DNA from: Candidatus Adlerbacteria bacterium
GTDB taxonomy: Bacteria > Patescibacteriota > Minisyncoccia > Phycocordibacterales > SBAW01
Assembly (NCBI GenBank): GCA_027451965.1
Contig: DAIDHJ010000001.1
Span: 162,368-226,367, forward strand
Direction: 5' to 3'
Length of the DNA stretch: 64,000 bases
Below are positions 14,851-59,603 of this stretch, one piece after another; within the stretch, counting starts at the first letter, position 1, and every line of letters begins with the position of its first letter. Made by a program: the position numbers and the translations under genes. Under the pieces are notes generated by a model. It was not told the DNA's origin, made no database searches, and saw only the letters and a list, made by a program, of their open reading frames with translations.

Positions 14851-14871
14851 TACGCATACTTATTTGATTTT

Positions 14872-17618: not shown

Positions 17619-17630
17619 ATACAAAGCATA

Positions 17631-17666
17631 ATGCCCGGTATCAATCTTGATACCGGGCATTTTTTG
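17631..17666. terminator. Bidirectional rho-independent terminator between convergent genes
   Basis: 12-bp perfect stem atgcccggtatc/gataccgggcat with loop aatctt, followed by ttttt. It lies between the stop at 17618 (+) and the stop at 17678 (-). Confidence 0.7.
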
Positions 17667-17677
17667 CGATGAACGGA

Positions 17678-33728: not shown

Positions 33729-34247
33729 TTAGTGATCTTCGTAAATTTGATTATTAGTGAAAGGGCACGATCCGTTACACCAACTAGAACAGTTGTACAC
33801 ATATGATTTCCATTGTTTTACTGCACATCTATTTGGACTATTGGGATCTTCAAGTTGTGCTATGAGGTCATAGTTTGAGCCATCCGAATTTGCCGCATAC
33901 GCGTATGAGTAACTCCCGTTTGACCAAGGATTTCCAGAGGTGTTGAGCGGGTCGGTAGGGAGCTGAGCCAGGTACGGAGCAAGCATAGTCTGCAGTGCGC
34001 CCCATTGAGTGGCATTATTACTTACACACCACCCGCTGGTGTATGCACAAGTGCCTTGAGGGTATGTCCCATGATCGTTCGCGTATTCTTCTAACGCCAA
34101 TTGAATAGTATGTAGATCGGATTCACGACGAGCGTCTCGCGCTTTAGCGCGAGCACTATTTAACGAAACAAGAATTATGGATGCCAAAATGCCAATGATG
34201 GCGATGACGACAAGTAATTCAATAAGGGTGAATCCTCTGTCTTTCAT
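33729..34247 (-). CDS. Type IV pilin (prepilin with class III signal)
   Basis: [39 protein letters not shown] carries the G/FTLIE cleavage and methylation motif. The C-terminus is Cys-rich. Confidence 0.8.
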   Translation of the reverse strand: MKDRGFTLIELLVVIAIIGILASIILVSLNSARAKARDARRESDLHTIQLALEEYANDHGTYPQGTCAYTSGWCVSNNATQWGALQTMLAPYLAQLPTDPLNTSGNPWSNGSYSYAYAANSDGSNYDLIAQLEDPNSPNRCAVKQWKSYVYNCSSWCNGSCPFTNNQIYEDH

Positions 34248-34508
34248 ACTAAATAAGTATAAGATAGATTTTTATCATACTCATATGATACAGGGTAAAA
34301 GTATGATTTTTACCTCAAAAGAGTACCTAGTCACGTATCCTGCCAGAGAGAACTGCATCAAGTTACTCAAATGCACAGCTTAAATTATCCAGAATCTCCT
34401 TGAAAACAATCAAATTCTGTTTTTTCTAGAGAAAGGGGATATTTAACAGGGAAAAATAATTACTCCTTGTTTATGCTATTTCTGGTTTATACTAAACAAT
34501 ATAAACCA

Positions 34509-35006
34509 ATGCGAAATCGAGGCTTTACGCTCATTGAACTTCTTGTCGTCATCGCCATCATTGGTATTCTCGCTTCAATTGTACTCGTATCTCTCAATTC
34601 AGCTCGTACTAAAGCACGAGATGCAAATCGAGTCGCTTCGCTACAAGAAATGGCGAAAGCAATCAGTCTTGCAGATACTGGTATACCAGTTCCGCTTGTC
34701 GGGTGCGTTAGTGGACCAACAGCAAACGTGAATACCTGTACGGGCCCTTCTCCCATCAATTTTAATAGCACGAACTACGGCGATCCATTGGTTGGAGGTG
34801 CCGGACCAAATTGTTTGTATAACAGTACGAAACCTTGCCAGTACACCATTTGGACGCAAGACGCTGCTTCTACTGGCGTGGGGGGTGCAACTACTGAAAA
34901 TTATGAAATTTGTGCTTTCCTTGAAGTCGGTTCTGGTCCGCTCCCTGCTGGATTAGTGCATGTGGGAAGTGATACAAGCGGTGCAGTAGAACCTGGATGT
35001 CCTTAA
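34509..35006 (+). CDS. Type IV pilin, paralog of the 55990..56481 pilin
   Basis: [52 protein letters not shown]…[38 protein letters not shown]. It is near-identical in layout to the 55990 product. Confidence 0.8.
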
Positions 35007-35433
35007 GTAAAATTACTCTATACTCAAAGATAAAATTCTATAGTCTGGTTCGAAGTATGCTGAGAAACAAGAAAATTTTACTTGTGAAGAGGTGAGCGAA
35101 GCTGGAACTTTTTTAGGAAAACAGAAGAAAAGCCCACCTAAGTAGTGGTGGGCTGGGTGAGTATATGGCCGATGCCGTATGAAAGAATGCCGAAAACGAA
35201 ACATATGATCGGCAGAAAAAGTTGCGGCCATTGCAGATGTTGCTGTACGCAGTGTGCAAGGACTACACAACCCCAGAAGTAGACCATTAGGCCGAGAACT
35301 TTGAATTTCATAAGAACCCCCTTATCTAAAACCATTTTACTATATTTAGTATACTTTGTCAAGTACTGCAAAAGCGGTTCCAATCATGCAGGATCTGGTC
35401 CAAAAAACCATTTAAAAACAAGCGAAATTTACG

Positions 35434-35810
35434 GGTGGAGATGGCGGGTAGCGAACCCGCGTGCAACAGAGATGTGAAAGCGCTTCTACAAAGTGTAGTC
35501 CATTTATATTTCGATGTAATGCGTAGAAAATGGACAAAACCGTCTTACATCAAAGCTCTATAAGATCTTTATTGGTAAGCAAGAGCGTACTTACCAATGC
35601 AACTCGCTATATAACATCTGGATTCATACCCGCGAGCGAGATATGACAGATGTCGAGTTAGGCCTTAGCGTAGGCGAACTCGAAATCATTCACCGAGAAA
35701 TACGGCGAAGTAACTGATTTTGCAGTTATTGGTTCCGGGAGTTTAAAGAAGTTCCGGACTTCTACTTCGCGCTGCATTCACGAACTTCTATTGTCGAGAC
35801 AATGCATCCC
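35434..35810 (-). ncRNA. ssrA: tmRNA (transfer-messenger RNA)
   Basis: 5' GGGGAUG pairs with 3' CAUCUCC-A-CC, including the G3·U identity pair. The T-arm GCGGGUUCGCUACCCGC is close to E. coli GCGGGUUCAACUCCCGC. An internal ORF starting at a GCA resume codon reads …NDFEFAYAKA-UAA. It lies immediately downstream of smpB. Confidence 0.7.
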
Positions 35811-35860
35811 CGAAAAAAGCACGACGCTACTTGCTCTCTTCGCGGTACACTATTCTCTTT

Positions 35861-36303
35861 CTATTGCTGTTTCAATGAACGATTGATATCCCGTTGTGCG
35901 TCTCGTTTCTTGAGCACTTCTCGTTTGTCGTACTGTTTTCTACCACGAGCAATTGCAATACGGACTTTCAATTTTCGATTTTTAGTATAAATCGAAAATG
36001 GCACTATTGTCAAGCCTTTTTGCGCTTCTGCATTGGTCAATGTTATGAGCTCCTTCTTATTGAGCAGTAATTTCCGTGTACGGTCAGGTTCATAGTCCTT
36101 CGGTGTATTGCTCGGTTGGTAGGGAGGTATATGCATACCGACCAGATATGCTTCTTTACCGCGCACAATAACGTGTGCACCTTCCAGTTTTCCGGTTTTT
36201 TGCCGCAATGCCTTCACTTCAAATCCATGCAGTTCGATGCCGGCTTCGAATTCTTCAATTACCGCAAAATTCAGGTGAGCCTTTTTATGCTCGATAAGTA
36301 TCA
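35861..36303 (-). CDS. smpB: SsrA-binding protein SmpB
   Basis: MILIEHKKAHLNFAVIEEFEAGIELHGFEVKALRQKTGKLEGAHVIV…, with a basic C-terminal tail. Start at the internal ATG, 36303. Confidence 0.85.
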
Positions 36304-36333
36304 TGTAAAAAGTGTAGCACTCACTGGGCATAA

Positions 36334-38274
36334 GTGATATATTTGCTTGCGATGGCGAACTCTCGAAAACAGCGCAAGGCGCCGCTTCCACAAGCGCCGC
36401 AAGGAGGGAATTTCTTTTTTAACTTACTTACCAGTATTTCGGCGCTTTTGGTGCTTGCAGGCGCATATGCGTACTTTTCCGGCGATATAAAAACACCGCC
36501 CCCAACTATCCCGATCTCGCAAGTCGCACAGGATATCAATGCAGGAAAAGTGACTTCCATCAGTGTTAATGGTGATGCCCTCGACATTATCTATACGGAC
36601 AAATCGGAAAAACTTTCTAAGAAAGAACCAGAGACCGCGCTGACTCAAACGCTCACCAACTACGGGGTAACAAAAGACGCACTTGATAAGGTAACGATTA
36701 CGATTGAGCAGCAAAGTGCATGGCAAGTATGGCTTACCGACGCATTGCCGTTTCTTGCACCAATCTTGCTCATTGTCATTTTTGTATGGTATCTCTCACG
36801 ACAAATGCGAGGCGCAGGCATGCAAGCCTTCTCCTTCGGCCAGTCAAAACCGCGAGTCATTGATCCGAACGATCAAATACAGCGTATTACCTTTAAGGAT
36901 GTTGCTGGAGCAAAAGAAGCGAAACAAGAGCTCATAGAAGTAGTTGATTTCTTGCGCAATCCAAAAAAGTTTCTTGATATTGGCGCGCGGATCCCCAAGG
37001 GTATTCTCCTCATGGGAGCACCGGGTACCGGAAAAACGCTGCTTGCTCGTGCGGTGGCTGGGGAAGCGGGTGTGCCGTTCTTCTCCATTTCCGGATCTGA
37101 GTTCGTAGAGATGTTCGTAGGAGTGGGAGCCAGCCGCGTGCGCGACTTGTTCCTGACAGCAAAGAAATCCTCGCCGGCCATTATCTTTGTCGATGAAATT
37201 GATGCGGTAGGACGCGTACGCGGTACTGGCGTCGGAGGGGGAAATGATGAACGAGAGCAAACACTCAATCAGATTCTCGTGGAAATGGATGGATTTGAAC
37301 CGAATGAAAAGGTGATTGTCATGGCAGCTACTAACCGTCCTGATGTACTTGATCCTGCACTTCTGCGCACTGGACGATTTGACCGCCGTGTCGTCATTGA
37401 TTTACCGGATCGGCAGGACCGTCTCGATATTCTCACAATTCATGCGCGCAAAAAGCCGTTTGCAGAAGATGTGAACTTGCAGGTGATAGCAGAGCGCACG
37501 CCTGGATTCTCTGGTGCAGATCTGTTCTCTCTTATGAACGAAGCAGCTATTCTCGCCGCACGCGAAAACCGCCGCACTATTTCTCAATACGATCTCATCC
37601 GTTCGATTGAAAAGGTGATGCTCGGCCCTGAACGGCGCAGTCATGTGCTCAATAAGAAAGAGAAAGAAATTACCGCATACCATGAAGCCGGCCACGCTCT
37701 GGTTGCTTCCGTGCTCCCGTATGCTGATCCGGTGCATAAAATTTCCATTATCAGTCGCGGACGCACGGGAGGATATACACTCAAACTTCCGTTTGAAGAT
37801 AAACGCATGCAGAGCAAGCGGGAATTTTTGGATGACATTGCAGTATCTTTGGGGGGTTATGTTGCGGAGAAAACAATCTTTGGCGATATCACCACTGGCC
37901 CATCAAATGATTTGCAGGTACTGACCGGTCTTGCACGCGATATGGTAACGCGCTACGGCATGAGTGACGCTATAGGGACCATTGCGCTCACTGGAGAAGG
38001 TGGACGCGCTATGTTCGGCACTGGCCCGGAAGGAAAAGAATATTCGGAAAAGGTATCTGCCGAGGTTGATGCGGAAGTGCATCGGATCATCGACGAGGCG
38101 TACAAAAAAGCTGAAAAGATTATTACGGAAAAGCGTCCTGCACTTGATGCGATCGCCCAGCGCCTTATGGAGGTAGAAACAATAGAACGAGAAGAATTCG
38201 AACAGCTGCTCACGCTTCACGGGATTACCCCCAAGAAAAAGCAGGAAGATATTGAGCACCAGCCACTCGCTTAA
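36334..38274 (+). CDS. ftsH: ATP-dependent zinc metalloprotease FtsH
   Basis: AAA Walker [17 protein letters not shown] region and HEAGHA zinc motif ([10 protein letters not shown]), with two N-terminal TM segments. Confidence 0.95.
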
Positions 38275-38696
38275 AGATCTGCAGTGCAGTATGCACACTT
38301 GGTAGCAGCAATAGGAATTTCGCTCAGGCAATACGAGCATTTTTTCGTAGTAGGGTCTGCCGGTTTCTGGAGACGCATGGTTGAAATGAGGGTATTGATG
38401 GGCAATACGACGAAGAAATAGATAGCAAAAGCAGTTATTAGAAAGGAAATAAGCGCATTCAGGAAATCGCCGTAGAGGATACTACTTCCGTGGACGCTGA
38501 TGGCGAGTTTAGAAAAGTCTGGTTGTCCTATTATCGCTGCAATGAGCGGGGTAAAAATATCTTTTACCAGCCCGTTCACCACTGCGTTGAATGAAGCGCC
38601 AATCATGACACCGACCGCTAGATCAACCACATTGCCCCGCAAAATGAATTGCTTAAAACCTTGGAATAGAGTTCCCATATGTAAAAAGTATACCAC
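38271..38696 (-). CDS. mscL: Large-conductance mechanosensitive channel MscL with C-terminal CxxC-x9-CxxC tail
   Basis: FKQFILRGNVVDLAVGVMIGASFNAVVNGLVKDIFTPLIAAIIG is the MscL TM1 signature. It ends [24 protein letters not shown]. Confidence 0.85.
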   Translation of the reverse strand: MVYFLHMGTLFQGFKQFILRGNVVDLAVGVMIGASFNAVVNGLVKDIFTPLIAAIIGQPDFSKLAISVHGSSILYGDFLNALISFLITAFAIYFFVVLPINTLISTMRLQKPADPTTKKCSYCLSEIPIAATKCAYCTADL

Positions 38697-38729
38697 TGGC
38701 TATATAACGAAACCGCACAAGTTTGAATG

Positions 38730-39146
38730 TCATTCTTGTGCGGTTTTTGGTTTATCCCTGTGTTGCGTCTTCTCTTTTATGTAGGCTATGAGTTCAGAAA
38801 AATGCATGGTGTTTATATCCTGTGCATGTCTTCTGTCTAACAGCTCATCGATACCGATGTAGGCGCCGATAATGATCAAAAAGAGAATCGGCAGGAACAC
38901 TCCTGTTACGTACCATGGCTGGCGTAGACACAGTAGAACTATTTCACTAAGTTCTATCAATGCTAATACCACAATGGTTATACCAAGATTCCACCCAAGA
39001 CACGTTTGCGATTTGTGCTTTGGGTACAGGAGATTGAATAGTTCTACAAAGAACAAGTACAGCGTTGTGGGCAGTGGGGCTAGTACAATGACTATGACAA
39101 TAAAGAGCATGCCAAGTACCTTGCTCCCGATATCTTTGGTATCCAA
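38730..39146 (-). CDS. Hypothetical membrane protein (138 aa)
   Basis: Hydrophobicity only. Confidence 0.4.
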   Translation of the reverse strand: MDTKDIGSKVLGMLFIVIVIVLAPLPTTLYLFFVELFNLLYPKHKSQTCLGWNLGITIVVLALIELSEIVLLCLRQPWYVTGVFLPILFLIIIGAYIGIDELLDRRHAQDINTMHFSELIAYIKEKTQHRDKPKTAQE

Positions 39147-39251
39147 ATGGACCTCCTTTCCTATACCAAGACTACTTGGTTTCTCGTAAAAAAACCACCT
39201 TTACAGGCAATCCTTCATACAGGATACTCTTTTATAGAAGGAGAGTATGTT

Positions 39252-39452
39252 ATGGATCGTTCGACCTTTCGGTATGAGTTGCGCGAATGTCGAGAAGGTA
39301 TGCGCAAGGCTCGGAACAATATCAAAAGTCTCAAACAAAGGATAAAAAGGCTTCAGGCACTTTGTGTGCCACATCCAAACGCAAAAAAGATACACGGTAT
39401 TCTTACTTGTCCCGATTGCGGGTTTCGAGGTGTCACTACAAAAAGAAAGTGA
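39252..39452 (+). CDS. Small coiled-coil / zinc-ribbon-like protein (66 aa)
   Basis: AGGAG 9 nt upstream of the ATG. The C-terminus ends C-x3-H…C-x2-C (LCVPH…TCPDCG). Confidence 0.35.
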   Translation: MDRSTFRYELRECREGMRKARNNIKSLKQRIKRLQALCVPHPNAKKIHGILTCPDCGFRGVTTKRK

Positions 39453-39466
39453 CACCTCTTTTTTTG

Positions 39467-39538
39467 TGCGCGAGCCTGGATTCGAACCAGGAACCATCCG
39501 TGTATAAGACGGACGCTCTACCGTTGAGCTACTCGCGC
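39467..39538 (-). tRNA. tRNA with anticodon UAU (AUA-decoding, Ile-type)
   Basis: Cloverleaf read by hand: acceptor GCGCGAG/CTCGCGC, D-arm GCTC-AACGGTA-GAGC, anticodon stem TCCGT/ACGGA with loop C-U-UAU-A-C, and T-arm CCTGG-TTCGAAT-CCAGG. CCA is not encoded. Confidence 0.7.
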
Positions 39539-39564
39539 AGAACTAGAAGGACTATATCGTATTC

Positions 39565-41712
39565 CTACTCCAAATGCATCGTCTGCGCACGATGGAGTAG
39601 TGCTCGTGCGAGAAGCGGATGTTTTTGCAGTGTTTCATCTTGCTCAACTAGTGTGAATGCTTCTGTACGAGCCGCTTCTACCAGTTTAAGATTTTTTAAT
39701 GCTTCCATACCGATATCTGAAATACCCCACTGCTTCCTGCCGGAAAGTTCTCCCGGACCTCTCTGTAGCAGATCTTGCTCAGCAAGGGCAAACCCATTTT
39801 TTGCTGTCACGAGATGTTTCAGGCGTGCTAATGGTAAGGCACTTTTTGTCTGCGGACAGATAAAACAATACGCTTGATGGGTACTCCGGATCACTCTGCC
39901 ACGCAACTGATGCAGTTGTGCAAGACCGAACCGTTCTGCTCCTTCGATAAGGATAATCGTTGCATTCGGTACATTTACGCCTACTTCCACTACTGACGTA
40001 GCTACGAGTATGTCGCTATCGTGATTAGCAAATGCCTGCATCACCGCATCTTTTTCTGCCGGCTTCATTTTTGAGTGGAGTATCGCAATGCGATATTCGG
40101 GAAACACTTCCTTTTGTAATCGTTTTGCTTCTTCTTTTACTGACTTAGTAAGCAATGCGAATGCTTTTTCTGGGTCCGGCTCATCAATGCGCGGACAAAT
40201 GACGTATGCTTGGCGCCCTGCTTGGAGTTCCGTACGGATAGTCTCGTACATCTTTTTTCGTTGCTCGGGCTTGATAATGTCTGTAATCACCGGCTTGCGT
40301 CCTGGCGGCATTTCATCAAGCAATGTCAGATCAAGGTCTCCGTAAATAGTAAGAGCGAGCGTGCGCGGAATTGGTGTGGCAGTCATGGAAAGCAAGTGAG
40401 GTATGCGTGTTTCCTTGCGCGCGAGTGCACGTCGTTGATTGGTGCCGAATCGATGCTGTTCATCAATAATCACGAGTGCCAAATGTTTCCACTGCACACT
40501 TTTTTGAATGAGCGCATGGGTGCCGATAAGGATCGGTATTTCCCCGTTTGCCACCCATTTCAGTAGTTGGGCACGAGAAATCGTGGTCGCCTTGTTTTTT
40601 GAAATCTTTGACGGGAATTTATAACATCCGCTTCCGGTAATAAGGCCGATATTGATGGGAAACGATCGAAAGTAGGAAATAAATGATTCAAAATGCTGCT
40701 TTGCAAGAATTTCGGTAGGAGCCATGTACGCCACCTGCAGCGTGCCGAATGTCTGTCCTTGCGGACGAGTAGTGACCGCGGCATAGGAAATGGTTGCTGC
40801 TACTGCAGTTTTTCCGCTTCCCACATCTCCTTCAAGTAATCGGGACATAGGATGTCCTTGTGCCATATCTTTGAGGATGGCAGCAATGGCATGTTTTTGT
40901 GCGCGGGTGGCAGAAAAAGGAAAATCGTTCATAAATGAATCCACCATTTCTTTACTGGGTTGTATGCGAAAACTTTGCTGATGGGATTGTTTCCGGCGTT
41001 CCTGTCCAAGATGTAATTGGATAAGGAATACCTCTTGAAATGCAAACCGTTTTCGGGCAGCTTCGGCATTTTTTAACTCTTTTGGCATATGAATCCATAG
41101 CAACGCTGTTTTCAGTGTCGGCAGGTGATAGCGACTTACGATATCCTCAGGTATAGGATCTTCTATTGTTTCAATCACTCCGCTGTGCGTGATTCGTTCA
41201 AATGCATGACGAAACCATAAGGAGGTGATGCCGCGGCTTTCTGGATAAATAGCAAAGAGCTCTTGTGCTTCTCCCTCCTGTGACGAAAACATGCCTGTGT
41301 CGGCAGGTGAGATGCGTTCAAGATTGGGGTTTGCCACATATAACTTATTTGCAGAGCCGGTTACTTTTCCTGTTACGCGCACATGCATGCCATCAACGTA
41401 CATTTTTGCAATGTAGGGTTGATGGAACCACATGAGCGCAATGCGCCCGGTTGCGTCACGAAGATATCCTTGTGAAATTGGAATCTTGTGCTTCCATGAT
41501 TTTTTGGTCTCAAGCTTTTCAAGCGTACCTACAAGGGATACGGATGCGCCAGGAGTAAGACTGTCTATTTGTGTTGCCGATCCGCTCTCCTCGTACCGGG
41601 AAGGAAAATGAAACAGTAGATCTTCTATCGTCTCGATACCAAGCGTGTGAAGCGCTTCTTTCTGGAGCGCAGTCAGGCGGAAATGATCGGAAAGCGGATC
41701 ACTGAGTTGCAT
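39565..41712 (-). CDS. recG: ATP-dependent DNA helicase RecG
   Basis: N-terminal wedge/OB region, helicase motif I DVGSGKT, motif II DEQHRFG, and later LSMTATPIPRTL and QLHQLRGRVIR. Confidence 0.9.
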   Translation of the reverse strand: MQLSDPLSDHFRLTALQKEALHTLGIETIEDLLFHFPSRYEESGSATQIDSLTPGASVSLVGTLEKLETKKSWKHKIPISQGYLRDATGRIALMWFHQPYIAKMYVDGMHVRVTGKVTGSANKLYVANPNLERISPADTGMFSSQEGEAQELFAIYPESRGITSLWFRHAFERITHSGVIETIEDPIPEDIVSRYHLPTLKTALLWIHMPKELKNAEAARKRFAFQEVFLIQLHLGQERRKQSHQQSFRIQPSKEMVDSFMNDFPFSATRAQKHAIAAILKDMAQGHPMSRLLEGDVGSGKTAVAATISYAAVTTRPQGQTFGTLQVAYMAPTEILAKQHFESFISYFRSFPINIGLITGSGCYKFPSKISKNKATTISRAQLLKWVANGEIPILIGTHALIQKSVQWKHLALVIIDEQHRFGTNQRRALARKETRIPHLLSMTATPIPRTLALTIYGDLDLTLLDEMPPGRKPVITDIIKPEQRKKMYETIRTELQAGRQAYVICPRIDEPDPEKAFALLTKSVKEEAKRLQKEVFPEYRIAILHSKMKPAEKDAVMQAFANHDSDILVATSVVEVGVNVPNATIILIEGAERFGLAQLHQLRGRVIRSTHQAYCFICPQTKSALPLARLKHLVTAKNGFALAEQDLLQRGPGELSGRKQWGISDIGMEALKNLKLVEAARTEAFTLVEQDETLQKHPLLARALLHRAQTMHLE

Positions 41713-42365: not shown

Positions 42366-42452
42366 GGAGGCGTGGCTGAGCGGTCGAAAGCAGCAACCTG
42401 CTAAGTTGTTGAGGGGGAAACCTCTCCGAAGGTTCGAATCCTTCCGCCTCCG
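42366..42452 (+). tRNA. tRNA-Ser (anticodon GCU), class II with long variable arm
   Basis: GGAGGCG…anticodon loop CU-GCU-AA…long variable stem-loop…GGTTCGAATCC…CGCCTCC-G. Confidence 0.85.
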
Positions 42453-42545
42453 CTGACTAGTGAGCCCGTGTTTTAAGACCTTTTTCCATTGGCTTGTCGG
42501 GCCAAGGAACTCAGTCAGAGCACTAAAACAATTTATAATAATGTT

Positions 42546-45314: not shown

Positions 45315-45863
45315 TCATCGGCACTTTCGAACATGTAACCCGCACTCTACTGTGGTTTTTTTGCCGGGGAATCCGGAAGGGTGTATCGGTAGGGCATGTT
45401 GAATAAGGTACAGAGCTGCTTCTGTTTGGGTCATACGCAGAAGGGGGTAGATGCATATACGACCATTTTCCGCTTCTGCGTGTTGAATTGTTGATCGGAA
45501 GCTGCTCTGGTCTCCACGAACTCCATACAGCACTGCTCGTGCATTGTATGTATCGAGTATGCGCTGCATCTCACCCGGTTTATCCTCTGCTTTATAACTG
45601 GGTATAGTAATACCAAACCAGTTAGACAGCGTTTCCTTGTACTGCCTATTTTCTGGTGTTACATCAGCAGACTCAAGATGAATGATAGGAATAGGGTGTT
45701 TGCTTTGCAGCACCATATGCAGCAGTATCGCCGAATTGGTGCCAAAACTTGTACTCATGACGAGTAGATTCCCAAATATCTTACAGGCACTCTGTATGAT
45801 TTCTTGGGGATTTTTCTGGAGCCAGTAAACGTGCAAGTCTGCAGCGTTCTCAGTGGTATTCAC
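45315..45863 (-). CDS. PAPS-reductase-family (PP-loop) protein, short form lacking the C-terminal Cys pair
   Basis: LVMSTSFGTNSAILLHMV…IPIIHLESADVTPE and …ICIYPLLRMTQTEAALYLIQHALPIHPS parallel the CysH SFG…S / …NPLxxWT… blocks. Confidence 0.55.
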   Translation of the reverse strand: MNTTENAADLHVYWLQKNPQEIIQSACKIFGNLLVMSTSFGTNSAILLHMVLQSKHPIPIIHLESADVTPENRQYKETLSNWFGITIPSYKAEDKPGEMQRILDTYNARAVLYGVRGDQSSFRSTIQHAEAENGRICIYPLLRMTQTEAALYLIQHALPIHPSGFPGKKTTVECGLHVRKCR

Positions 45864-49100: not shown

Positions 49101-50180
49101 ATGGCGTTTTCTATTGGATCATTTTTCTCAAAAGAGCAAAAAAGCGTAGTGGGTATTGATATCGGCACTTCGGCCATAAAAGTGGTGCAGCTACGGCGCG
49201 ATCACGGCAAGGTCATTTTGGAAACGTACGGTGCTATTGCCTTGGGTCCTTATGCAGGATTGGAAGTCGGACGGGCCACCTCACTTCCTGTTGAAAAAAT
49301 TACCGAGGCGCTCAAGGATGTTATTCGGGAAGCACGAGTCACTACTACTGATGCGGCAGTTTCTATTCCCTATGCCTTGAGCCTTATTTCCATCATTAAA
49401 CTGCCGACATCAGTCGAAAAAAAGCTGGCACAAGTCGTGCCGCTTGAAGCCCGCAAATATATTCCCGTTCCCATCAACGAAGTGCAATTGGATTGGTTCG
49501 TGCTTTCGGGAGGAGGGAAGGAGGCAACGCCAGGAGGAAAACTGGAAGTGCTGATGGTGGCGATACATAACGATACGCTCACTAATTTCAAAAATATTAT
49601 CAGTGGCGCTGCGCTCACCCCCGCATTTTTTGAAATTGAAGTGTTTAGTACGGTTCGTTCAGGACTTGATCGAGGTATCGCGCCGCTTGCAGTGGTTGAT
49701 ATGGGAGCGGCTACCACCAAATTTTATGTGGTAGAGCGCGGCTTAATTCGAGAAAGCCACATCATCAATCATGGTGGACAAGATCTTACGCTCGCTGCCT
49801 CCCGCGCGCTTAATATCAGCGTGGCACAGGCAGAGGAACGAAAACGCAAATTCGGGCTTCTTCCAGAGGCAGGGCAAGAACTCAACCAGGCGCTCAGCCT
49901 TTCCTTGGAACCCCTCCTTTCAGAGCTTACGCGTACCGTTGCTGCATACGAACAGCGTATGAACGAGTCGCTTGAAGCAATGGTGATTACCGGAGGCGCA
50001 GCGACGATAAAAGGATTTAAAGAATTCGCACAGACGAGACTGCAGAATGAAATACGCCTCGCAGATCCGTTTGGAAAAACCCAAGCACCGGCGTTTTTGG
50101 AAGGAATACTCAAAGAGGCAGGACCGGAATTTTCTGTAGCGGTAGGATTGGCACTGCGTCGCCTCCAAGAACAGGGGTAA
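49101..50180 (+). CDS. pilM: Type IV pilus assembly protein PilM (actin-like ATPase fold)
   Basis: VVGIDIGTSAIKVVQL…, at the head of the pilus operon. Confidence 0.85.
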   Translation: MAFSIGSFFSKEQKSVVGIDIGTSAIKVVQLRRDHGKVILETYGAIALGPYAGLEVGRATSLPVEKITEALKDVIREARVTTTDAAVSIPYALSLISIIKLPTSVEKKLAQVVPLEARKYIPVPINEVQLDWFVLSGGGKEATPGGKLEVLMVAIHNDTLTNFKNIISGAALTPAFFEIEVFSTVRSGLDRGIAPLAVVDMGAATTKFYVVERGLIRESHIINHGGQDLTLAASRALNISVAQAEERKRKFGLLPEAGQELNQALSLSLEPLLSELTRTVAAYEQRMNESLEAMVITGGAATIKGFKEFAQTRLQNEIRLADPFGKTQAPAFLEGILKEAGPEFSVAVGLALRRLQEQG

Positions 50181-50231
50181 TTCTGTTGATAGAAATACCC
50201 TTGAAGAAATTTTTAACGCTATACTATATAT

Positions 50232-50906
50232 ATGGACTCTCCTGTTCCTTCTTCGTTCATACCTAAAAAGGCCTTTACTCCCACTCCACTACCTACTCCT
50301 TCGGTCGGAGGAAATGGCATTATATATGCCGTATGCCTCTTTTTGTTTGTTGTTTCGCTTTTGGCCGCAGGAGGAGTATTCGCCTACCAAGCCTATTTGA
50401 CACAAACGATTGCGGATAACGGCGCTATTTTAACAAAAGATCAAACAGCTCTTGATTTTCCAGCAATTGAGGATTTGGTACGCCTTGATTCTCGCATAAC
50501 ACAAGCAAAAACCCTCCTCGCACGGCATGTTGCCCCGTCCTCTATTTTTGCATTTCTCTCTCAAGAAACGCTGCAGAATGTACAATTCACCACGTTTAAG
50601 TACGATATCCAGCCGGACGGATCAGCAACTATAAAACTTGATGGAGTTGCTGATTCATTCTCTACCGTTGCCTTGCAGAGCGATCAGTTAAGCAACAGTA
50701 CCTTGCTCAAGGATATTCTGTTCACCAATCTCAATACGAATCCCAATGGGCAAGTTACGTTTACGGTACAAGCAACGGTAGTTCCTGCTCTATTCCTGTA
50801 TAGCTCAACACTGGGAACCCCGGTATCAACAACTCCTACAGTTTCAGCAACAACTACACCTGCAACTACAAGCGGAACATCCACCGCCACATCTTCACAC
50901 CCATAA
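50232..50906 (+). CDS. pilN: PilN-like bitopic pilus assembly protein
   Basis: Single TM (IIYAVCLFLFVVSLLAAGGVFAY), a periplasmic domain and a Thr/Ser-rich tail. Its position after pilM supports the call. Confidence 0.6.
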   Translation: MDSPVPSSFIPKKAFTPTPLPTPSVGGNGIIYAVCLFLFVVSLLAAGGVFAYQAYLTQTIADNGAILTKDQTALDFPAIEDLVRLDSRITQAKTLLARHVAPSSIFAFLSQETLQNVQFTTFKYDIQPDGSATIKLDGVADSFSTVALQSDQLSNSTLLKDILFTNLNTNPNGQVTFTVQATVVPALFLYSSTLGTPVSTTPTVSATTTPATTSGTSTATSSHP

Positions 50907-50908
50907 CT

Positions 50909-51451
50909 ATGATGCGTATTATTATGCCACTCCTTCTTCTCGCAGCCGCCATCGGGTTATTTGTGGTATATACCAACCCAACCTACCAGCAGGTACAAGC
51001 GCAAAGTGCCCAAGCTTCGCAGTTAAATGATGCGCTCCTCAAAGCGCAGCAGCTGCAAAGTTTGCGCGATCAGCTCATGGCAAAGCGCAATGCCTTTGCT
51101 GCAAGCGATCTCACGAAACTGCAAAACATTCTTCCAGATAATGTCGATAACATACGGCTTATTCTCGATATCAATAATGTTGCCTATCGGCATGGGTTGA
51201 CCTTGAGTAACCTGAAGTTAAATACCAGTTCTGATTCGCAAGGGAATAATACCGTTGTTGGTTCCACCGGTCCCATAGGTTCATTGCAAATAGGGTTTTC
51301 CGTTACCACTGACTACAACACATTCATTGCATTTCTTCAGGATCTTGAACACAGCGAGCGATTGATCGATATTACGGATATTTCATTTGTCACAGATACC
51401 AGTAGTCTTACTACGTATAACATTACCTTCCGCACCTATTGGCTTCATTAA
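50909..51451 (+). CDS. pilO: PilO-like pilus assembly protein
   Basis: TM plus coiled-coil (QQVQAQSAQASQLNDALLKAQQLQSLRDQL), then a beta-rich C-terminus. It follows pilN directly. Confidence 0.6.
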   Translation: MMRIIMPLLLLAAAIGLFVVYTNPTYQQVQAQSAQASQLNDALLKAQQLQSLRDQLMAKRNAFAASDLTKLQNILPDNVDNIRLILDINNVAYRHGLTLSNLKLNTSSDSQGNNTVVGSTGPIGSLQIGFSVTTDYNTFIAFLQDLEHSERLIDITDISFVTDTSSLTTYNITFRTYWLH

Positions 51452-51455
51452 TACT

Positions 51456-51776
51456 ATGAATTTTATTAAAAAAAATTTGCTATTTATTCTCGGAGCAGTG
51501 ATTGTATTGGGAGGATTGTTTTATTATATGTCTAACAGCGGTGCGCCAACGCCACTTCTCACATCGAGCGCTTCAAGTAACTCTCCAGTTACACAGCAAC
51601 TACTCGTCTCTCTTTCCAGTCTACATACGATCACGCTTGATAATGCAATCTTTTCTGATCCAGTATTCGTCTCTTTGACGGATTTCGGAGTACAAATTGC
51701 TCCTGAAAATGTTGGCCGAGGAAATCCATTCGCACCGTTTGGTACTGCAGTTCCGGCAAAACAGGGGCATTCATAG
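51456..51776 (+). CDS. Small TM-anchored pilus-operon protein (PilP-position), function unknown
   Basis: MNFIKKNLLFILGAVIVLGGLFYY… ending GRGNPFAPF. The internal start was chosen because the track ORF overlaps pilO. Confidence 0.45.
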   Translation: MNFIKKNLLFILGAVIVLGGLFYYMSNSGAPTPLLTSSASSNSPVTQQLLVSLSSLHTITLDNAIFSDPVFVSLTDFGVQIAPENVGRGNPFAPFGTAVPAKQGHS

Positions 51777-51784
51777 TATGTGTT

Positions 51785-53629
51785 ATGGATCTTATACATA
51801 TACTTCTTCAAAAAGGCATACTCCAACAAGAACAGCTTTCTGGGCTTGAGCAAGCTATAAAAAGTTCCGGTGCTTCACAGGAAGCACTTCTTGCAAATGC
51901 TGGCATCGCTCTAGAAGATATTCTGAAAGCAAAAGGGGAGTACTACAACATTCCCACCCGCATTTTAGGTAGTAAGACGCTTTCATTCCAAACACTTCGG
52001 TTAATACCGGAGGAATCCGCACGTCATTATGGATTCGTACCGCTCGGCATTGTTGATAGTGCGCTTGAAGTAGGTGTTACTGATCCAGACAATTTGGCAG
52101 CGCGTGATGCTCTCTCATTTATATCCGGGAAATTGGGCATGCCGTATAAGGTATTTCTTATTACGGAATCTGATTTTGAAAAAGTTCTTCAGCAATATAA
52201 AGGTCTCTCGGGAGAGGTGGGAACCGCACTCACCGAATTGGAAACAGATGCTGCGGAAGAAAAGAAGGGACAGCAAGGGAAGCGATTCACTTCCATAGAA
52301 GAGGAAACGATAACCGACACTTCGAGTGAAGCAGTTACCGAAGATGCGCCTATTACAAAAATTGTAGCAACCATTTTGCGCCACGCATCCGAACAGCGAG
52401 CATCCGACATTCACATAGAACCGTTCCCGGACGAAAGTCGTATTCGATTTCGTATTGACGGTGTTTTAATCACGAGCATCACGCTTCCTGCAAAAATACA
52501 CCCTGCGGTTGCCGCACGTATTAAAGTGCTTTCAAATATGCGTCTTGATGAAAAACGGCGTCCACAAGACGGTCGTTTTTCAGCGCGTATTTCTGGAGAA
52601 AAAGTAGATTTCCGTGTCTCCACGTTTCCGACTTATTACGGCGAAAAGGTTGAAATGCGTATTTTGGGAACATCTGCAATGGCAATCAAACTGGAGGATC
52701 TTGGTTTTTCAGACCACAATCGGGAAATGATTCGTGCGGCTATTAAAAAACCCTACGGCATGATCCTCATTTCCGGACCTACCGGTTCAGGAAAATCAAC
52801 CACTCTGTATGCTATTCTGAATGAAATTGACCGAGACAAACAAAATGTATTGTCTTTGGAAGATCCGGTCGAATATACCATTCCAGGCGTCTCACAATCG
52901 CAAGTACGTCCAGAAATAGGATATACCTTCGCTACCGGACTACGCACTACGCTTCGACAAGATCCAAACGTTATCATGGTGGGTGAGATCCGAGATGCAG
53001 AAACGGCAGATTTGGCCGTGCAAGCGGCACTTACCGGACACCTGGTGCTCTCTACCATTCACACTAATAATGCTATAGGTATTGTCCCTCGACTACTTGA
53101 TATGAAAATAGAACCGTACCTTATTCCGCCAGTACTTATTCTTGGTATGGCACAGCGTCTGGTACGGACACTTCCTCCAAATGGCGGAAAAAAGGTGCCG
53201 GTTGAAGGAAGTATACAAACGATGATTGAAAAAGAGTTTTCTGACCTGCCGGCACAATTCAAAGATGAGATACCCCCTATGAAAGAAATCTATCGTTTGC
53301 ATCCAACTCCAGAATTTCCCACTGGTACCAAAGGACGTGTTGCAGTATCAGAGCTCTATGAAATGACACCGGAACTCGAACGAGCCATCGTTGCAAACAA
53401 ACCTGAACAAGATTTATCAGCCATTGTGCGTAAATACGGTATGCTCACCATGAAAGAGGATGCTATCATTAAGGCTGCTCGAGGAATAATTCCTCTTGAA
53501 GAGATAAATACCTTAGGAGGTGGTTTTGATTTTTCCGATACAGATGCTGATCACATGCCGGCTCCTACACCCACCGTGCTTGGGGAAGATATTGCTTCCG
53601 AAGATCTTACAGACGAGGTACAGCTATGA
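51785..53629 (+). CDS. pilB: Type IV pilus extension ATPase PilB (GspE family), canonical motifs intact
   Basis: Walker A ISGPTGSGKSTTLYAIL, Asp box LEDPVEY, Walker B DPNVIMVGEIRD and His box GHLVLSTIHTNNA. Confidence 0.9.
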   Translation: MDLIHILLQKGILQQEQLSGLEQAIKSSGASQEALLANAGIALEDILKAKGEYYNIPTRILGSKTLSFQTLRLIPEESARHYGFVPLGIVDSALEVGVTDPDNLAARDALSFISGKLGMPYKVFLITESDFEKVLQQYKGLSGEVGTALTELETDAAEEKKGQQGKRFTSIEEETITDTSSEAVTEDAPITKIVATILRHASEQRASDIHIEPFPDESRIRFRIDGVLITSITLPAKIHPAVAARIKVLSNMRLDEKRRPQDGRFSARISGEKVDFRVSTFPTYYGEKVEMRILGTSAMAIKLEDLGFSDHNREMIRAAIKKPYGMILISGPTGSGKSTTLYAILNEIDRDKQNVLSLEDPVEYTIPGVSQSQVRPEIGYTFATGLRTTLRQDPNVIMVGEIRDAETADLAVQAALTGHLVLSTIHTNNAIGIVPRLLDMKIEPYLIPPVLILGMAQRLVRTLPPNGGKKVPVEGSIQTMIEKEFSDLPAQFKDEIPPMKEIYRLHPTPEFPTGTKGRVAVSELYEMTPELERAIVANKPEQDLSAIVRKYGMLTMKEDAIIKAARGIIPLEEINTLGGGFDFSDTDADHMPAPTPTVLGEDIASEDLTDEVQL

Positions 53630-54687
53630 ATTACGAACAACTACTCGCTTCGCTCATCAATCAGGTTATTGCGCAAGGAGCGTCTGACTTGCATTTAACA
53701 GTGGGAAGTCGCCCGATTATTCGTGTATCTGGTGTGCTTATTCCATTTTTCTCTGAAACGAAACTTACCAATGAAGATGTAAAAGGATTACTGGAGCGCA
53801 TGGTGCCTCCTGATCGCATGCAAAAATTTCTTGAAACGCAGGAAATGGATTTCTCATTCTCGTATGGGAACCAAGCCCGTTTTCGAGGAAATGCTTTCTT
53901 CGAACGAGGGACTATCGGTGTAGCACTTCGCTTCATCCCGAAGGTAATCAAAACAATTGGAGAACTTAATTTACCACAATCACTTGAGCAGTTTGCAGCG
54001 CTTCAGCATGGTTTCTTTCTGGTAGTTGGACCAGTAGGACAAGGGAAATCGACAACGCTAGCTTCACTTATCGAAAAGATCAATACTGAACGCACAGAAC
54101 ATATCATTACCATTGAAGATCCGATTGAATATCTGTTTGAAAATAAAAAATCAATCATTGATCAGCGTGAAGTGCATCTCGACACTCCTTCTTTTGAAAG
54201 TGCACTGGAATCCATGTTTCGTCAGGATGTAGACGTACTCATGATTGGGGAAATGCGTACGCCGGAAACTATTGCTACTGCGGTCACTGCTGCAGAAACC
54301 GGACATCTGGTGCTTTCTACGCTTCATACTAACAATGCATCGCAAACCATTGATCGCATCATCGATTCATTTCCTGCTACGCAACAGGATCAGATTCGCA
54401 TCCAGCTTGCTGGATCGCTCGCGGGAATCTTTTCGCAGCGCCTGATCCCTCGTATTTCAGGAGGACTTATTGTGGCATATGAATTGCTTATCAATACAAA
54501 AGCAGTGGCAAATTTGATTCGTGAAAAACGGACTCCTGAAATCGATGCGATTATCGAAACGTCTTCGCAAGAAGGAATGGTTGATATCAATCGATCGCTC
54601 GCCGATTTGGTTCGAGCGGGAGAAATTACTGCAGAAAATGCCTATGCGCAATCCTGGAATCCAAAGAATCTTGAGCGATTGCTGTAA
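53626..54687 (+). CDS. pilT: Type IV pilus retraction ATPase PilT
   Basis: GASDLHLTVGSRPIIRVSG…LVVGPVGQGKSTTLASLIEKIN…MIGEMR…GHLVLSTLHTNNA. The 353 aa length fits PilT. Confidence 0.85.
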   Translation: MNYEQLLASLINQVIAQGASDLHLTVGSRPIIRVSGVLIPFFSETKLTNEDVKGLLERMVPPDRMQKFLETQEMDFSFSYGNQARFRGNAFFERGTIGVALRFIPKVIKTIGELNLPQSLEQFAALQHGFFLVVGPVGQGKSTTLASLIEKINTERTEHIITIEDPIEYLFENKKSIIDQREVHLDTPSFESALESMFRQDVDVLMIGEMRTPETIATAVTAAETGHLVLSTLHTNNASQTIDRIIDSFPATQQDQIRIQLAGSLAGIFSQRLIPRISGGLIVAYELLINTKAVANLIREKRTPEIDAIIETSSQEGMVDINRSLADLVRAGEITAENAYAQSWNPKNLERLL

Positions 54688-54693
54688 ACATAT

Positions 54694-55908: not shown

Positions 55909-55989
55909 AGTGGCTTTTATCCACAGCGATCCTTTAAAAAGGATGTACTAACGGTATACTTAAAATATCTTACAAATCTGGCTTTATCC

Positions 55990-56481: not shown

Positions 56482-56577
56482 TATAAATTAATAGAAAAAC
56501 TTCCCATCACACGGGAAGTTTTTCTTAGTTAGAACAAAGTCATTATGGTTAGTGTGTATTAAGGTACAATAGAATAT

Positions 56578-57102: not shown

Positions 57103-57107
57103 ATGAA

Positions 57108-59601: not shown

Positions 59602-59603
59602 AC

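What the first reader, a model, noticed from the sequence alone, without database searches (positions are those of the whole stretch)
39467..39538. tRNA with anticodon UAU (AUA-reading Ile-type tRNA)
Hand folding gives a clean cloverleaf with anticodon loop C-U-U-A-U-A-C, i.e. U34-A35-U36. Most bacteria decode AUA with a CAU-anticodon tRNA modified to lysidine by TilS. A genomically encoded UAU anticodon is a minority solution and implies an altered decoding and modification strategy. The gene sits 14 nt from a small zinc-ribbon ORF and 26 nt from recG.
Basis: partly seen in the sequence, partly recalled or inferred. Interest (0 to 1): 0.5.

Follow-up and report, generated by a model that had tools for sequence, protein, structure and literature searches.

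The report
Isoleucine tRNA that reads AUA directly
This is a real transfer-RNA gene with anticodon UAU that lets an ultra-small (CPR/Paceibacteria) bacterium read the isoleucine codon AUA directly, apparently in place of the lysidine-modified tRNA that almost all other bacteria use, and the same gene sits next to ftsH across a whole clade of relatives.

Summary
A canonical 72-nt tRNA with anticodon UAU lies at 39467-39538 on the minus strand (ARAGORN tRNA-Ile(tat); Rfam 74.8 bits).

It is not a one-off. I recovered 41 distinct orthologues from Patescibacteria (Paceibacteria/Parcubacteria) genomes and metagenomes. All share the loop C32-U33-U34-A35-U36-A37 and A73. Covariation is very strong: 99.5% of cells paired and 17 of 21 pairs with compensatory changes.

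The conserved neighbour is ftsH (median 355 nt downstream). It is not the orphan "zinc-ribbon" ORF.

AUA is frequent (about 15 per 1000 codons, 21% of Ile codons). It aligns with Ile/Val/Leu in relatives, not Met.

In an FtsH tree the UAU-bearing loci form one large clade. Outside that clade, nine loci carry the classic tilS-ftsH operon, and none of them has the UAU tRNA. No UAU locus (0.66 Mb in total) and no part of the window contains tilS.

Published annotation tables of two cultured Paceibacteria show a type-2 (eukaryote-like) IleRS architecture. Their stored parts have no K04075 (tilS) and no mnmE/mnmG.

Most likely this is the sole AUA decoder of a lysidine-free lineage, as in Mycoplasma mobile and Bifidobacterium. 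Genome-wide absence of tilS could not be tested here.

The parts
39467..39538 (-). tRNA-Ile(UAU) gene, positions 1-73. Acceptor GCGCGAG/CUCGCGC, D-arm GCUC-AACGGUA-GAGC, anticodon arm UCCGU-CUUAUAC-ACGGA, variable loop UGGUU, T-arm CCUGG-UUCGAAU-CCAGG, discriminator A73. Only C74 is encoded (39466), so CCA must be added after transcription.
   Evidence: ARAGORN; Rfam 74.8 bits; MFE cloverleaf; covariation across 41 orthologues
39565..41712 (-). recG. It lies immediately upstream of the tRNA on the same strand with a 26-nt spacer, so co-transcription is the probable source of the tRNA precursor in this genome.
   Evidence: Pfam RecG_wedge/DEAD/Helicase_C/RecG_dom3_C. No sigma-70-like promoter on the minus strand in 39100-39900. 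recG lies near the tRNA in many but not all relatives.
36334..38274 (+). ftsH, the conserved linkage partner of the tRNA across the clade. In this window it is separated from the tRNA by 1.2 kb of genome-specific insert. It is preceded by smpB/tmRNA rather than tilS.
   Evidence: Pfam Peptidase_M41/AAA. The tRNA lies downstream of ftsH in 39 loci, median 355 nt, 28 on the same strand, 16 within 150 nt.
38271..39452 (.).
   Evidence: Pfam MscL for the first ORF and no family for the other two. None of the three has a tblastn homologue in any of the roughly 100 related loci.
39427..39465 (+). 11-bp hairpin (39427-39458) followed by U7 (39459-39465). It is an intrinsic-terminator-like element for the convergent orphan ORF and abuts the tRNA 3' end. 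On the minus strand the same hairpin follows the tRNA but has no U-run.
   Evidence: strand folding: -18.5 kcal/mol, z=-4.6, 0 of 200 shuffles as good; sequence
35433..36391 (-). tmRNA (35433-35811) and smpB (35861-36391), divergent from ftsH. They occupy the position where tilS sits in outgroup loci.
   Evidence: Rfam RF00023 112.6 bits; Pfam SmpB; smpB next to ftsH in 23 related loci

Best explanation
This is the functional, single-copy tRNA-Ile(UAU) gene ('tRNA-Ile3' in tRNAscan-SE terms) of a Paceibacteria/Parcubacteria (CPR, Patescibacteria) bacterium.

Shown: it is a canonical tRNA under strong purifying and compensatory selection. It is conserved next to ftsH throughout a large clade. 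AUA is a frequent codon in this genome and means Ile.

Inferred mechanism: the gene is transcribed on the minus strand, probably as a read-through of recG. The precursor is processed at both ends and receives CCA after transcription. IleRS then charges it with isoleucine. In cultured Paceibacteria the IleRS has the type-2, eukaryote/archaeal-like architecture, and that enzyme type recognises the O4 carbonyl of U34 through a conserved arginine. The charged tRNA reads AUA through a U34-A Watson-Crick pair. U34 is most likely unmodified, because no MnmE/MnmG is seen in a relative, and A37 most likely carries t6A, because TsaD/TsaE are present. AUG misreading would be limited by weak U-G pairing of unmodified U34 and by competition with tRNA-Met.

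Inferred evolutionary reading: in this clade the tRNA has replaced the TilS + tRNA-Ile2(CAU->lysidine) system, which in neighbouring lineages is encoded as a tilS-ftsH operon at the same locus.

Confidence by step: functional AUA-reading tRNA-Ile about 0.95; sole AUA decoder in a tilS-less genome about 0.65.
For: Gene and fold.

Family: 13 orthologues beside recG in genome-derived relatives, 41 in all. Invariant positions are U8, U12-A23, C32, U33, U34-A35-U36, A37 and A73. 99.5% of cells are paired, 17 of 21 pairs have double-sided changes, and 0 of 500 shuffles reach the observed values.

Codon meaning: window ATA codons align with I 36%, V 21%, L 18%, M 3.4%, like ATT/ATC and unlike ATG.

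Codon usage: ATA is 15.5 per 1000 codons and 21% of Ile codons, but only 5 of 77 Ile codons in tufA/fusA/rpsG. The median in UAU loci is 15.6 per 1000.

tilS: no PP-loop ORF and no tblastn hit with E. coli TilS or with 8 metagenomic TilS proteins in the window or in 0.66 Mb of UAU loci. A genuine tilS (TIGR02432, 148-189 bits) abuts ftsH in 8 loci plus one at a contig edge, none of which has tRNA-Ile(UAU). The 2x2 table is 28/0/4/16. UAU loci form one clade in the FtsH tree and tilS loci lie outside it.

Cultured Paceibacteria: IleRS lists PF00133+PF08264+PF19302 without the Zn finger PF06827, while the E. coli type-1 control shows PF06827 and no PF19302. There is no K04075 in the near-complete PMX_810_sub table or in the stored half of the M. 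archaeiphilus table. There is no mnmE, mnmG or tadA, but tsaD is present.

Mechanistic precedent: PMC3575796 (M. mobile has unmodified UAU; tilS-less Bifidobacterium and Neorickettsia have eukaryote-type IleRS), PMC3919564 (unmodified U34 binds AUA strongly and AUG weakly), PMC11685878 (Arg999 of type-2 IleRS hydrogen-bonds U34 O4; C32 stacks on U33).
Against: Only 64 kb of this genome and +/-10 kb around ftsH/recG in relatives were visible, so tilS and a tRNA-Ile2(CAU) could lie elsewhere. Sixteen non-UAU loci also lack tilS beside ftsH, so adjacency is not universal and its absence does not prove loss.

The association test (Fisher p=0.025) ignores phylogenetic non-independence. The FtsH tree is a neighbour-joining tree without support values and has one UAU outlier, L069. 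The taxonomy of the tilS-bearing metagenomic loci is unknown, and four of them are GC-rich and probably not CPR.

The IleRS of this genome was never seen. The IleRS-type and modification-enzyme evidence comes from other authors' annotation tables, which are truncated or from an incomplete bin (PMX_810_sub lacks ftsH), and it is not established that those two organisms carry the UAU tRNA. Modification status and aminoacylation cannot be read from DNA.
Confidence: 0.65

Rival explanations
1. Redundant decoder. The genome also encodes TilS and tRNA-Ile2(CAU) elsewhere, and tRNA-Ile(UAU) is a supplementary AUA reader, as in Lactobacillus casei/plantarum, Cyanothece PCC 7424 or Ferrimonas balearica.
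For: Such coexistence is documented in several bacteria (PMC3575796, read). Whole-genome absence of tilS was not testable here. tilS is not always beside ftsH: 16 non-UAU loci lack it there.
Against: Redundant UAU genes are sporadic in the known cases, whereas this one is fixed and syntenic across a deep clade (RecG down to 48% identity, FtsH down to 52%) in very small genomes. tilS-ftsH and the UAU tRNA never co-occur, 0 of 28 against 4 of 20. There is no K04075 in the near-complete Paceibacterales table, which lists only two CAU tRNAs. AUA usage is high.
Confidence: 0.27
2. Different identity or recoding. The UAU tRNA is charged with another amino acid (for example Met, as for AUA in many mitochondria), so AUA is reassigned.
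For: CPR lineages are known for code changes (UGA in Gracilibacteria/Absconditabacteria; my own knowledge). The anticodon alone does not prove which amino acid is attached.
Against: ATA positions align with I>V>L, with M at only 3.4%. This mirrors ATT/ATC and differs from ATG, where M is 58%. A73, U12-A23 and A37 are invariant, and C4-G69 and C29-G41 are present in the window's copy; these are Ile identity elements in E. coli (Nureki et al. 1994, from my own knowledge).
Confidence: 0.03
3. Non-functional or accidental: a pseudogene, a chance cloverleaf, or a recently acquired mobile-element or phage tRNA.
For: Phages and islands often carry rare-codon tRNAs. The immediate neighbours (mscL and two orphan ORFs) are genome-specific.
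Against: There are 41 orthologues with perfect compensatory covariation and an invariant anticodon loop. Synteny with ftsH/smpB/recG looks vertical and the loci form a single FtsH clade. No integrase or phage genes are nearby. The Rfam score is high.
Confidence: 0.02

Closest known systems
Mycoplasma mobile tRNA-Ile2(UAU) system (Taniguchi et al. 2013, PMC3575796)
   Same: A bacterial, genomically encoded UAU anticodon that reads AUA without lysidine. tilS is absent there, and absent from all sequence visible here. U34 is probably unmodified with t6A37. The genome is small.
   Different: M. mobile uses a type-1 IleRS adapted by Trp->Arg865 in the Zn-binding domain, whereas cultured Paceibacteria show a type-2 IleRS architecture. 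M. mobile is a single species within Mollicutes, whereas here the trait spans a large CPR clade and has a fixed position beside ftsH. Nothing has been verified biochemically here.
Bifidobacterium and Neorickettsia: tilS-less, tRNA-Ile(UAU), eukaryote-type IleRS (PMC3575796; PMC8450103)
   Same: The combination of a UAU tRNA with a type-2 IleRS and no tilS. This is probably the closest mechanistic match.
   Different: The phyla are unrelated, so the origin is independent. The IleRS type is inferred here from relatives' annotation, not from this genome. The ftsH linkage and the locus-level exclusivity with tilS-ftsH have not been described for those genera.
Lactobacillus casei/plantarum, Cyanothece, Ferrimonas: tRNA-Ile(UAU) coexisting with tilS (PMC3575796)
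   Same: A bacterial tRNA-Ile(TAT) gene.
   Different: Those genomes keep tilS and tRNA-Ile2, and the UAU gene occurs sporadically. Here no tilS is seen and the gene is conserved clade-wide.
Eukaryotic cytosolic tRNA-Ile(UAU -> PsiAPsi) and archaeal tRNA-Ile3(UAU) of Nanoarchaeum/Korarchaeum (PMC11685878; PMC8450103)
   Same: A UAU-anticodon AUA decoder charged by a type-2 IleRS. C32-U33 are invariant, as in the yeast complex where C32 stacks on U33.
   Different: Eukaryotes modify U34/U36 to pseudouridine in an intron-dependent way. This gene has no intron, and truA was not found in a relative's table. The domain of life differs.
Bacillus subtilis delta-tilS suppressor tRNA-Ile1(G34U) (PMC3919564)
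   Same: It shows that an unmodified U34 tRNA-Ile can sustain near-normal growth, binding AUA strongly and AUG weakly.
   Different: That is a laboratory mutation of tRNA-Ile1. Here the gene is natural and ancient, and its ancestry (Ile1, Ile2 or other) could not be resolved.

Membership tests
Canonical elongator tRNA (Rfam RF00005) | Cloverleaf with 7/4/5/5-bp stems, U8, A14, G18-G19, T-loop GTTCRANYC, 7-nt anticodon loop with U33 | tested here: met
   74.8 bits, full-length, no non-canonical pairs; MFE cloverleaf; invariant U8, A14, G18G19, U33, T-loop
Canonical elongator tRNA (Rfam RF00005) | Structure maintained by compensatory substitutions in orthologues | tested here: met
   41 sequences: 99.5% paired, 17 of 21 pairs changed on both sides, 0 of 500 shuffles; slid controls 25-47% paired
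tRNA-Ile reading AUA with anticodon UAU ('tRNA-Ile3') | Anticodon U34-A35-U36 with A37 | tested here: met
   ARAGORN (tat); loop CUUAUA invariant in 41 of 41
tRNA-Ile reading AUA with anticodon UAU ('tRNA-Ile3') | The cognate codon AUA is used and specifies isoleucine | tested here: met
   ATA 15.5 per 1000 codons; aligned residues I 36%, V 21%, L 18%, M 3.4%
tRNA-Ile reading AUA with anticodon UAU ('tRNA-Ile3') | Ile identity elements outside the anticodon (E. coli set: A73, U12-A23, C4-G69, C29-G41, A38; from my own knowledge of Nureki et al. 1994) | tested here: inconclusive
   The window copy has A73, U12-A23, C4-G69 and C29-G41, but C38. Across the family A73 and U12-A23 are 41 of 41, C4-G69 35 of 41, C29-G41 12 of 41, A38 7 of 41. 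The E. coli rules may not apply to a type-2 IleRS.
tRNA-Ile reading AUA with anticodon UAU ('tRNA-Ile3') | Aminoacylation with isoleucine by IleRS | not testable with these tools
   Needs biochemistry. IleRS was not found in the window or in 1.3 Mb of loci.
Lysidine-independent AUA decoding system (M. mobile / Bifidobacterium type) | No tilS in the genome | tested here: inconclusive
   Absent from the window and from all 41 UAU loci. Never co-occurs with tilS-ftsH. No K04075 in the stored annotation of two cultured Paceibacteria. The whole source genome is not available.
Lysidine-independent AUA decoding system (M. mobile / Bifidobacterium type) | No tRNA-Ile2(CAU) gene | tested here: inconclusive
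   No CAU tRNA in the window or in any UAU locus. PMX_810_sub lists only two tRNA-Met(cat). Genome-wide status is unknown.
Lysidine-independent AUA decoding system (M. mobile / Bifidobacterium type) | IleRS able to accept U34 (Arg/Lys in place of the wobble-stacking Trp in type 1, or a type-2 enzyme) | tested here: inconclusive
   Not testable for this genome. Two cultured Paceibacteria IleRSs list PF19302 and no PF06827. The E. coli control is the reverse.
Lysidine-independent AUA decoding system (M. mobile / Bifidobacterium type) | U34 left unmodified (or modified so as to exclude G) and AUG not misread | not testable with these tools
   Only indirect evidence: mnmE/mnmG absent and tsaD present in the PMX_810_sub table.
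Canonical TilS / tRNA-Ile2(LAU) system | tilS gene (PP-loop SGGxDS, TIGR02432), commonly in a tilS-ftsH operon | tested here: not met
   In the window ftsH is preceded by smpB/tmRNA. There is no TilS hit in the window. Positive controls were found in 9 outgroup loci. This applies only to the sequence available.

The most novel reading that the evidence does not exclude
A whole class-level CPR lineage (Paceibacteria/Parcubacteria, comprising many species) has abandoned lysidine. Under this reading, the tilS (+ CAU tRNA) module upstream of ftsH was replaced by a tRNA-Ile(UAU) gene just downstream of ftsH. The tRNA is charged by a type-2 IleRS and used with an unmodified wobble U in a genome that also lacks MnmE/MnmG and TadA. 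That would make Paceibacteria by far the largest lysidine-independent bacterial group. Because CPR is a deep branch, it would also provide a natural test of Taniguchi et al.'s proposal that unmodified UAU was the ancestral AUA decoder.
Probability: 0.55. Interest if true: 0.6.

Novelty: new member of a known kind. Interest (0 to 1): 0.45.

Why it matters
AUA/AUG discrimination is the classic weak point of the genetic code, and TilS is regarded as essential and nearly universal in bacteria. Known exceptions are a handful of genera: nine species in three clades in 2013, and 17 genomes in 2021.

If the clade-wide pattern seen here reflects true loss of tilS, a major and very diverse bacterial radiation decodes AUA with a plain UAU anticodon. 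That would have four consequences. It would show that minimal translation systems converge on modification-free decoding. It would predict that TilS-targeted antibacterials and TilS-based marker sets do not apply to these organisms. It would affect how tRNA-Ile2 and tRNA-Met are annotated in CPR MAGs. And it would offer the culturable M. archaeiphilus as a system for studying how ribosomes avoid AUG misreading by U34.

In the open-access library searched, no paper connects lysidine or tilS with CPR, Patescibacteria or Parcubacteria.

Tried and rejected
(1) Locating the source contig. Exact-protein look-ups found nothing for RecG and only two contigs of about 2.5 kb for EF-Tu, so the rest of the genome could not be reached.

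(2) Searching for tilS in the same genome. Only the 64-kb window and +/-10 kb flanks of relatives are available.

(3) Finding IleRS. tblastn with E. coli IleS found nothing in 1.3 Mb of loci, so the Trp905/Arg865 position could not be examined.

(4) The AUA meaning test against E. coli EF-Tu, EF-G and S7. There were only 5 ATA codons, too few to judge. It was replaced by the test against relatives.

(5) Origin of the tRNA (Ile2 C34->U, Ile1 G34->U, or other). An anticodon-masked profile scores Val, elongator-type CAU, Asn and Arg tRNAs about equally, so this is unresolved.

(6) ATA usage as a discriminator. UAU loci have high ATA usage, but so do the few moderate-GC tilS loci, so it is not diagnostic.

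(7) A promoter for the tRNA. No sigma-70-like site was found on the minus strand, so co-transcription with recG is inferred, not shown.

(8) Supplements of the Patescibacteria tRNA-intron preprint and of Taniguchi 2013 are not held.

(9) Table S4 of PMC10936435 is only a selected gene list and says nothing about tilS. The Prokka 'tRNA(Ile)-lysidine synthase' PMX_810_sub_00091 was rejected as a misannotation: its best UniRef match is an N-acetyl-sugar amidotransferase, it has no KO, and it has no PF01171.

Full report
OBSERVATION. The window holds two tRNA genes. One of them is tRNA-Ile with anticodon tat at 39466-39538 on the minus strand (ARAGORN). Rfam's tRNA model matches 39538->39467 end to end at 74.8 bits (gathering score 29, E=1.5e-14) with every stem position paired. 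The thermodynamic fold of the strand alone is the cloverleaf (-31 kcal/mol, z=-3.8). After A73 only a C is encoded, so CCA is added post-transcriptionally. The stated distances are correct: 14 nt to ORF 39147-39452 and 26 nt to recG.

ORGANISM AND CONTEXT. The window encodes NusA, TIM, PGK, RecJ, S7, EF-G, EF-Tu, S10, NDK, IF3, a P-type ATPase, tmRNA/SmpB, FtsH, MscL, RecG, a peroxiredoxin, LigA, GatC/A and a large type IV pilus cluster. It has no TilS, IleRS or wobble-U modification enzyme. RecG's closest relatives among species-representative genomes (no more than 61% identity) are MAGs labelled Candidatus Paceibacterota, Minisyncoccia or Patescibacteria group (taxonomy). This places the organism in CPR bacteria of the Parcubacteria/Paceibacteria type.

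THE tRNA IS A CONSERVED FAMILY. Twelve of the RecG-centred genome loci carry a tRNA-Ile(tat) near recG. A metagenome scan with the window's FtsH returned 80 more loci with FtsH identity of 77-49%, and ARAGORN finds tRNA-Ile(tat) in 28 of them. In total there are 41 distinct sequences. In their alignment, U8, U12-A23, C32, U33, U34-A35-U36, A37 and A73 are invariant. Position 38 is C in 27, U in 7 and A in 7. All four stems vary by compensatory change: 99.5% of 861 cells are paired, 17 of 21 pairs change on both sides, no shuffle of 500 reaches any observed measure, and slid controls are 25-47% paired (13-sequence version). This excludes a chance fold or a pseudogene.

WHAT IT IS LINKED TO. The conserved neighbour is ftsH, not the small ORF. 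In 39 loci the tRNA lies downstream of ftsH at a median of 355 nt. It is on the same strand in 28 loci and within 150 nt in 16. In the more distant members it heads a tRNA cluster, Ile(tat)-Val(gac)-Leu(gag)-Val(tac)-Phe-Gly. Here the tRNA is co-oriented with recG across a 26-nt spacer, and no sigma-70-like promoter was found, so I infer co-transcription with recG. An 11-bp hairpin followed by U7 (39427-39465, + strand; -18.5 kcal/mol, z=-4.6) terminates the convergent ORF right at the tRNA's 3' end.

WHAT AUA MEANS AND HOW MUCH IT IS USED. ATA accounts for 15.5 per 1000 codons and 21% of Ile codons in the window's 63 long ORFs. It drops to 5 of 77 Ile codons in tufA/fusA/rpsG, as expected for a codon served by one minor tRNA. 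At positions where relatives use a non-ATA codon, window ATA codons align with I 36%, V 21%, L 18% and M 3.4%. That is the ATT/ATC profile and not the ATG profile, where M is 58%. AUA is therefore Ile. Across UAU-bearing loci ATA is common, with a median of 15.6 per 1000.

IS TilS GONE? Within the reachable sequence, yes. There is no SGGxDS ORF and no tblastn hit with E. coli TilS in the window or the first 20 loci. With E. coli TilS and then eight metagenomic TilS proteins as queries, hits occur only in nine loci (L065, L074, L084 at a contig edge, L085, L088, L089, L097, L100, L103). In those loci tilS abuts or overlaps the start of ftsH. Six of these ORFs were scanned and all pass NCBIfam's TilS N-domain model (148-189 bits against a cutoff of 93.6). 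Three of those loci also carry an initiator tRNA and an elongator-type CAU tRNA just upstream of tilS. None of the nine has tRNA-Ile(UAU), and none of the 41 UAU loci (0.66 Mb) has tilS or any CAU tRNA. Among loci with at least 1.5 kb on both sides of ftsH the counts are UAU only 28, both 0, tilS only 4, neither 16. Fisher p is 0.025 and is not corrected for phylogeny. In a neighbour-joining FtsH tree rooted on E. coli, the UAU loci form one large, almost contiguous clade. Every member with enough flank has the tRNA, L069 is the one stray, and the tilS loci fall in neighbouring clades. L065 is instructive: it has tilS-ftsH-(1 kb)-tRNA-Val(gac), which is the synteny of the distant UAU sub-clade with tilS added and Ile(tat) removed. 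The limits are plain. tilS could have moved elsewhere in the genome, and 16 non-UAU loci also lack it next to ftsH.

EVIDENCE FROM CULTURED PACEIBACTERIA (other authors' annotation tables). In Table S2 of PMC10936435 (Ca. Yanofskyibacterium parasiticum PMX_810_sub, order Paceibacterales; stored to at least gene 819 of about 854) there is no K04075. The only 'tRNA(Ile)-lysidine synthase' is a Prokka label on an ORF whose best UniRef match is an N-acetyl-sugar amidotransferase with no KO and no PF01171. The tRNAs listed include Ile(gat) once and Met(cat) twice. The bin lacks ftsH, which is exactly the region where the UAU tRNA would be expected. The same table has no mnmE, mnmG, tadA or truA, but it has tsaD. 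In the stored part of the Minisyncoccus archaeiphilus table (PMC12281837; the genome is complete, 1.54 Mb with 44 tRNAs, accession AP038758) there is no K04075 or PF01171, although the stored part ends before ftsH. Both organisms' IleRSs list PF00133, PF08264 and PF19302 (DUF5915) and no Zn finger. One has its best eggNOG match in Treponema, and the other is fused to a histidine-phosphatase domain. The E. coli type-1 control gives PF06827 and no PF19302. From my own knowledge, PF19302 is the C-terminal domain of type-2 (eukaryote/archaeal-like) IleRS. It is not established that these two organisms carry the UAU tRNA, nor that the window's genome has the same IleRS.

MECHANISM. Type-2 IleRS recognises G34, I34, U34 and pseudouridine-34 through one conserved arginine that hydrogen-bonds the base carbonyl. 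It rejects C34, and it buries a stacked C32-U33 (PMC11685878). C32 and U33 are invariant in this family. Taniguchi et al. noted that the tilS-less Bifidobacterium and Neorickettsia have exactly this enzyme type, whereas M. mobile adapted a type-1 enzyme by Trp->Arg865. They also showed that M. mobile's U34 is unmodified and that its ribosome discriminates AUA from AUG. In B. subtilis lacking tilS, an unmodified-U34 tRNA-Ile binds AUA strongly and AUG weakly and supports normal growth. The most economical reading has four parts: tRNA-Ile(UAU), IleRS2, unmodified U34 with t6A37, and reading of AUA only. Steps shown here are the gene, its selection, its synteny, the codon meaning and usage, and the local absence of tilS with locus-level exclusivity. 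Steps inferred are charging, modification state, AUG avoidance and genome-wide loss of tilS.

COMPARISON WITH WHAT IS KNOWN, AND NOVELTY. Bacterial tRNA-Ile(UAU) is a known kind. Reports include 19 species with TAT genes in tRNADB-CE, nine tilS-less species in three clades, and 17 genomes in Bifidobacterium, Mycoplasma and Neorickettsia. I found no paper in the searchable library that links lysidine or tilS with Patescibacteria, Parcubacteria or CPR. The item is therefore a new member of a known kind. The added findings are that it is clade-wide in a CPR lineage, fixed beside ftsH, and mutually exclusive with the tilS-ftsH operon.

VERDICT. Interest is moderate (0.45). A specialist would not be astonished by one more UAU tRNA, but the clade-scale pattern is new and directly testable on complete genomes.

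Noticed in passing
L003:6319-6406, L006:967-1052, L007:6615-6702, L008:5464-5551, L010:1369-1460, L020:675-760, L041:20411-20501: Seven relatives carry a tRNA-Ser with anticodon ACU (loop U-U-A-C-U-A-A) and compensatory stem changes, often beside tRNA-Ser(GCU). A34 tRNAs other than Arg(ACG) are very rare in bacteria (tRNADB-CE counts 3 for Ser), and no tadA was found in a Paceibacterales annotation table. The window itself has only tRNA-Ser(GCU), at 42366-42453.
   Followed up: partly
L074:5376-7293, L085:5972-8110, L097:8495-9909: In outgroup loci the tilS-ftsH operon is immediately preceded by an initiator tRNA-fMet and one or two elongator-type CAU tRNAs (candidate tRNA-Ile2). The enzyme and its probable substrate gene are therefore clustered at the ftsH locus.
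   Followed up: partly
L059:14050 and L017:9871 (tRNA-Arg gcg): tRNA-Arg has anticodon GCG instead of the usual bacterial ACG(->ICG). This fits an organism without TadA and the general picture of modification-poor anticodons in these lineages.
   Followed up: no
window 35433-35811 (-) and 35861-36391 (-): tmRNA (Rfam 112.6 bits) lies directly beside smpB, divergent from ftsH. The smpB-ftsH pairing is conserved in 23 related loci.
   Followed up: partly
window 49101-60128, plus 1457-3211, 33729-34247, 34467-35006: There is a large type IV pilus/pseudopilin cluster (PilM, PilB, PilT, PilC, several prepilin-like ORFs with the [10 protein letters not shown] motif, and a prepilin peptidase by position). 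A second PilB-like ATPase and two more pilin genes lie elsewhere in the window. This is typical of episymbiotic CPR.
   Followed up: no
window 13438-18871: Four consecutive large ORFs (384-475 aa) have no Pfam family, apart from a weak DUF5018 segment. They have signal-peptide-like N-termini and are possibly surface or secreted proteins.
   Followed up: no
window 38271-39452: mscL and two orphan ORFs are inserted between ftsH and the tRNA in this genome only. This suggests a local insertion or rearrangement that also flipped the tRNA relative to ftsH.
   Followed up: yes
PMC10936435 Table S2, PMX_810_sub_00382 (literature, not window): The IleRS of Ca. Yanofskyibacterium is annotated as a 3504-nt gene that combines IleRS domains with a histidine-phosphatase (phosphoglycerate-mutase-like) domain. 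In M. archaeiphilus a gpmB-like gene sits directly before ileS. This may be a lineage-specific fusion.
   Followed up: no
window 45315-45863 (-): A short PAPS-reductase-family ORF (182 aa) with no SGGxDS PP-loop motif was detected. It is not TilS (no tblastn similarity), and its role in a genome with little sulfur metabolism is unclear.
   Followed up: no
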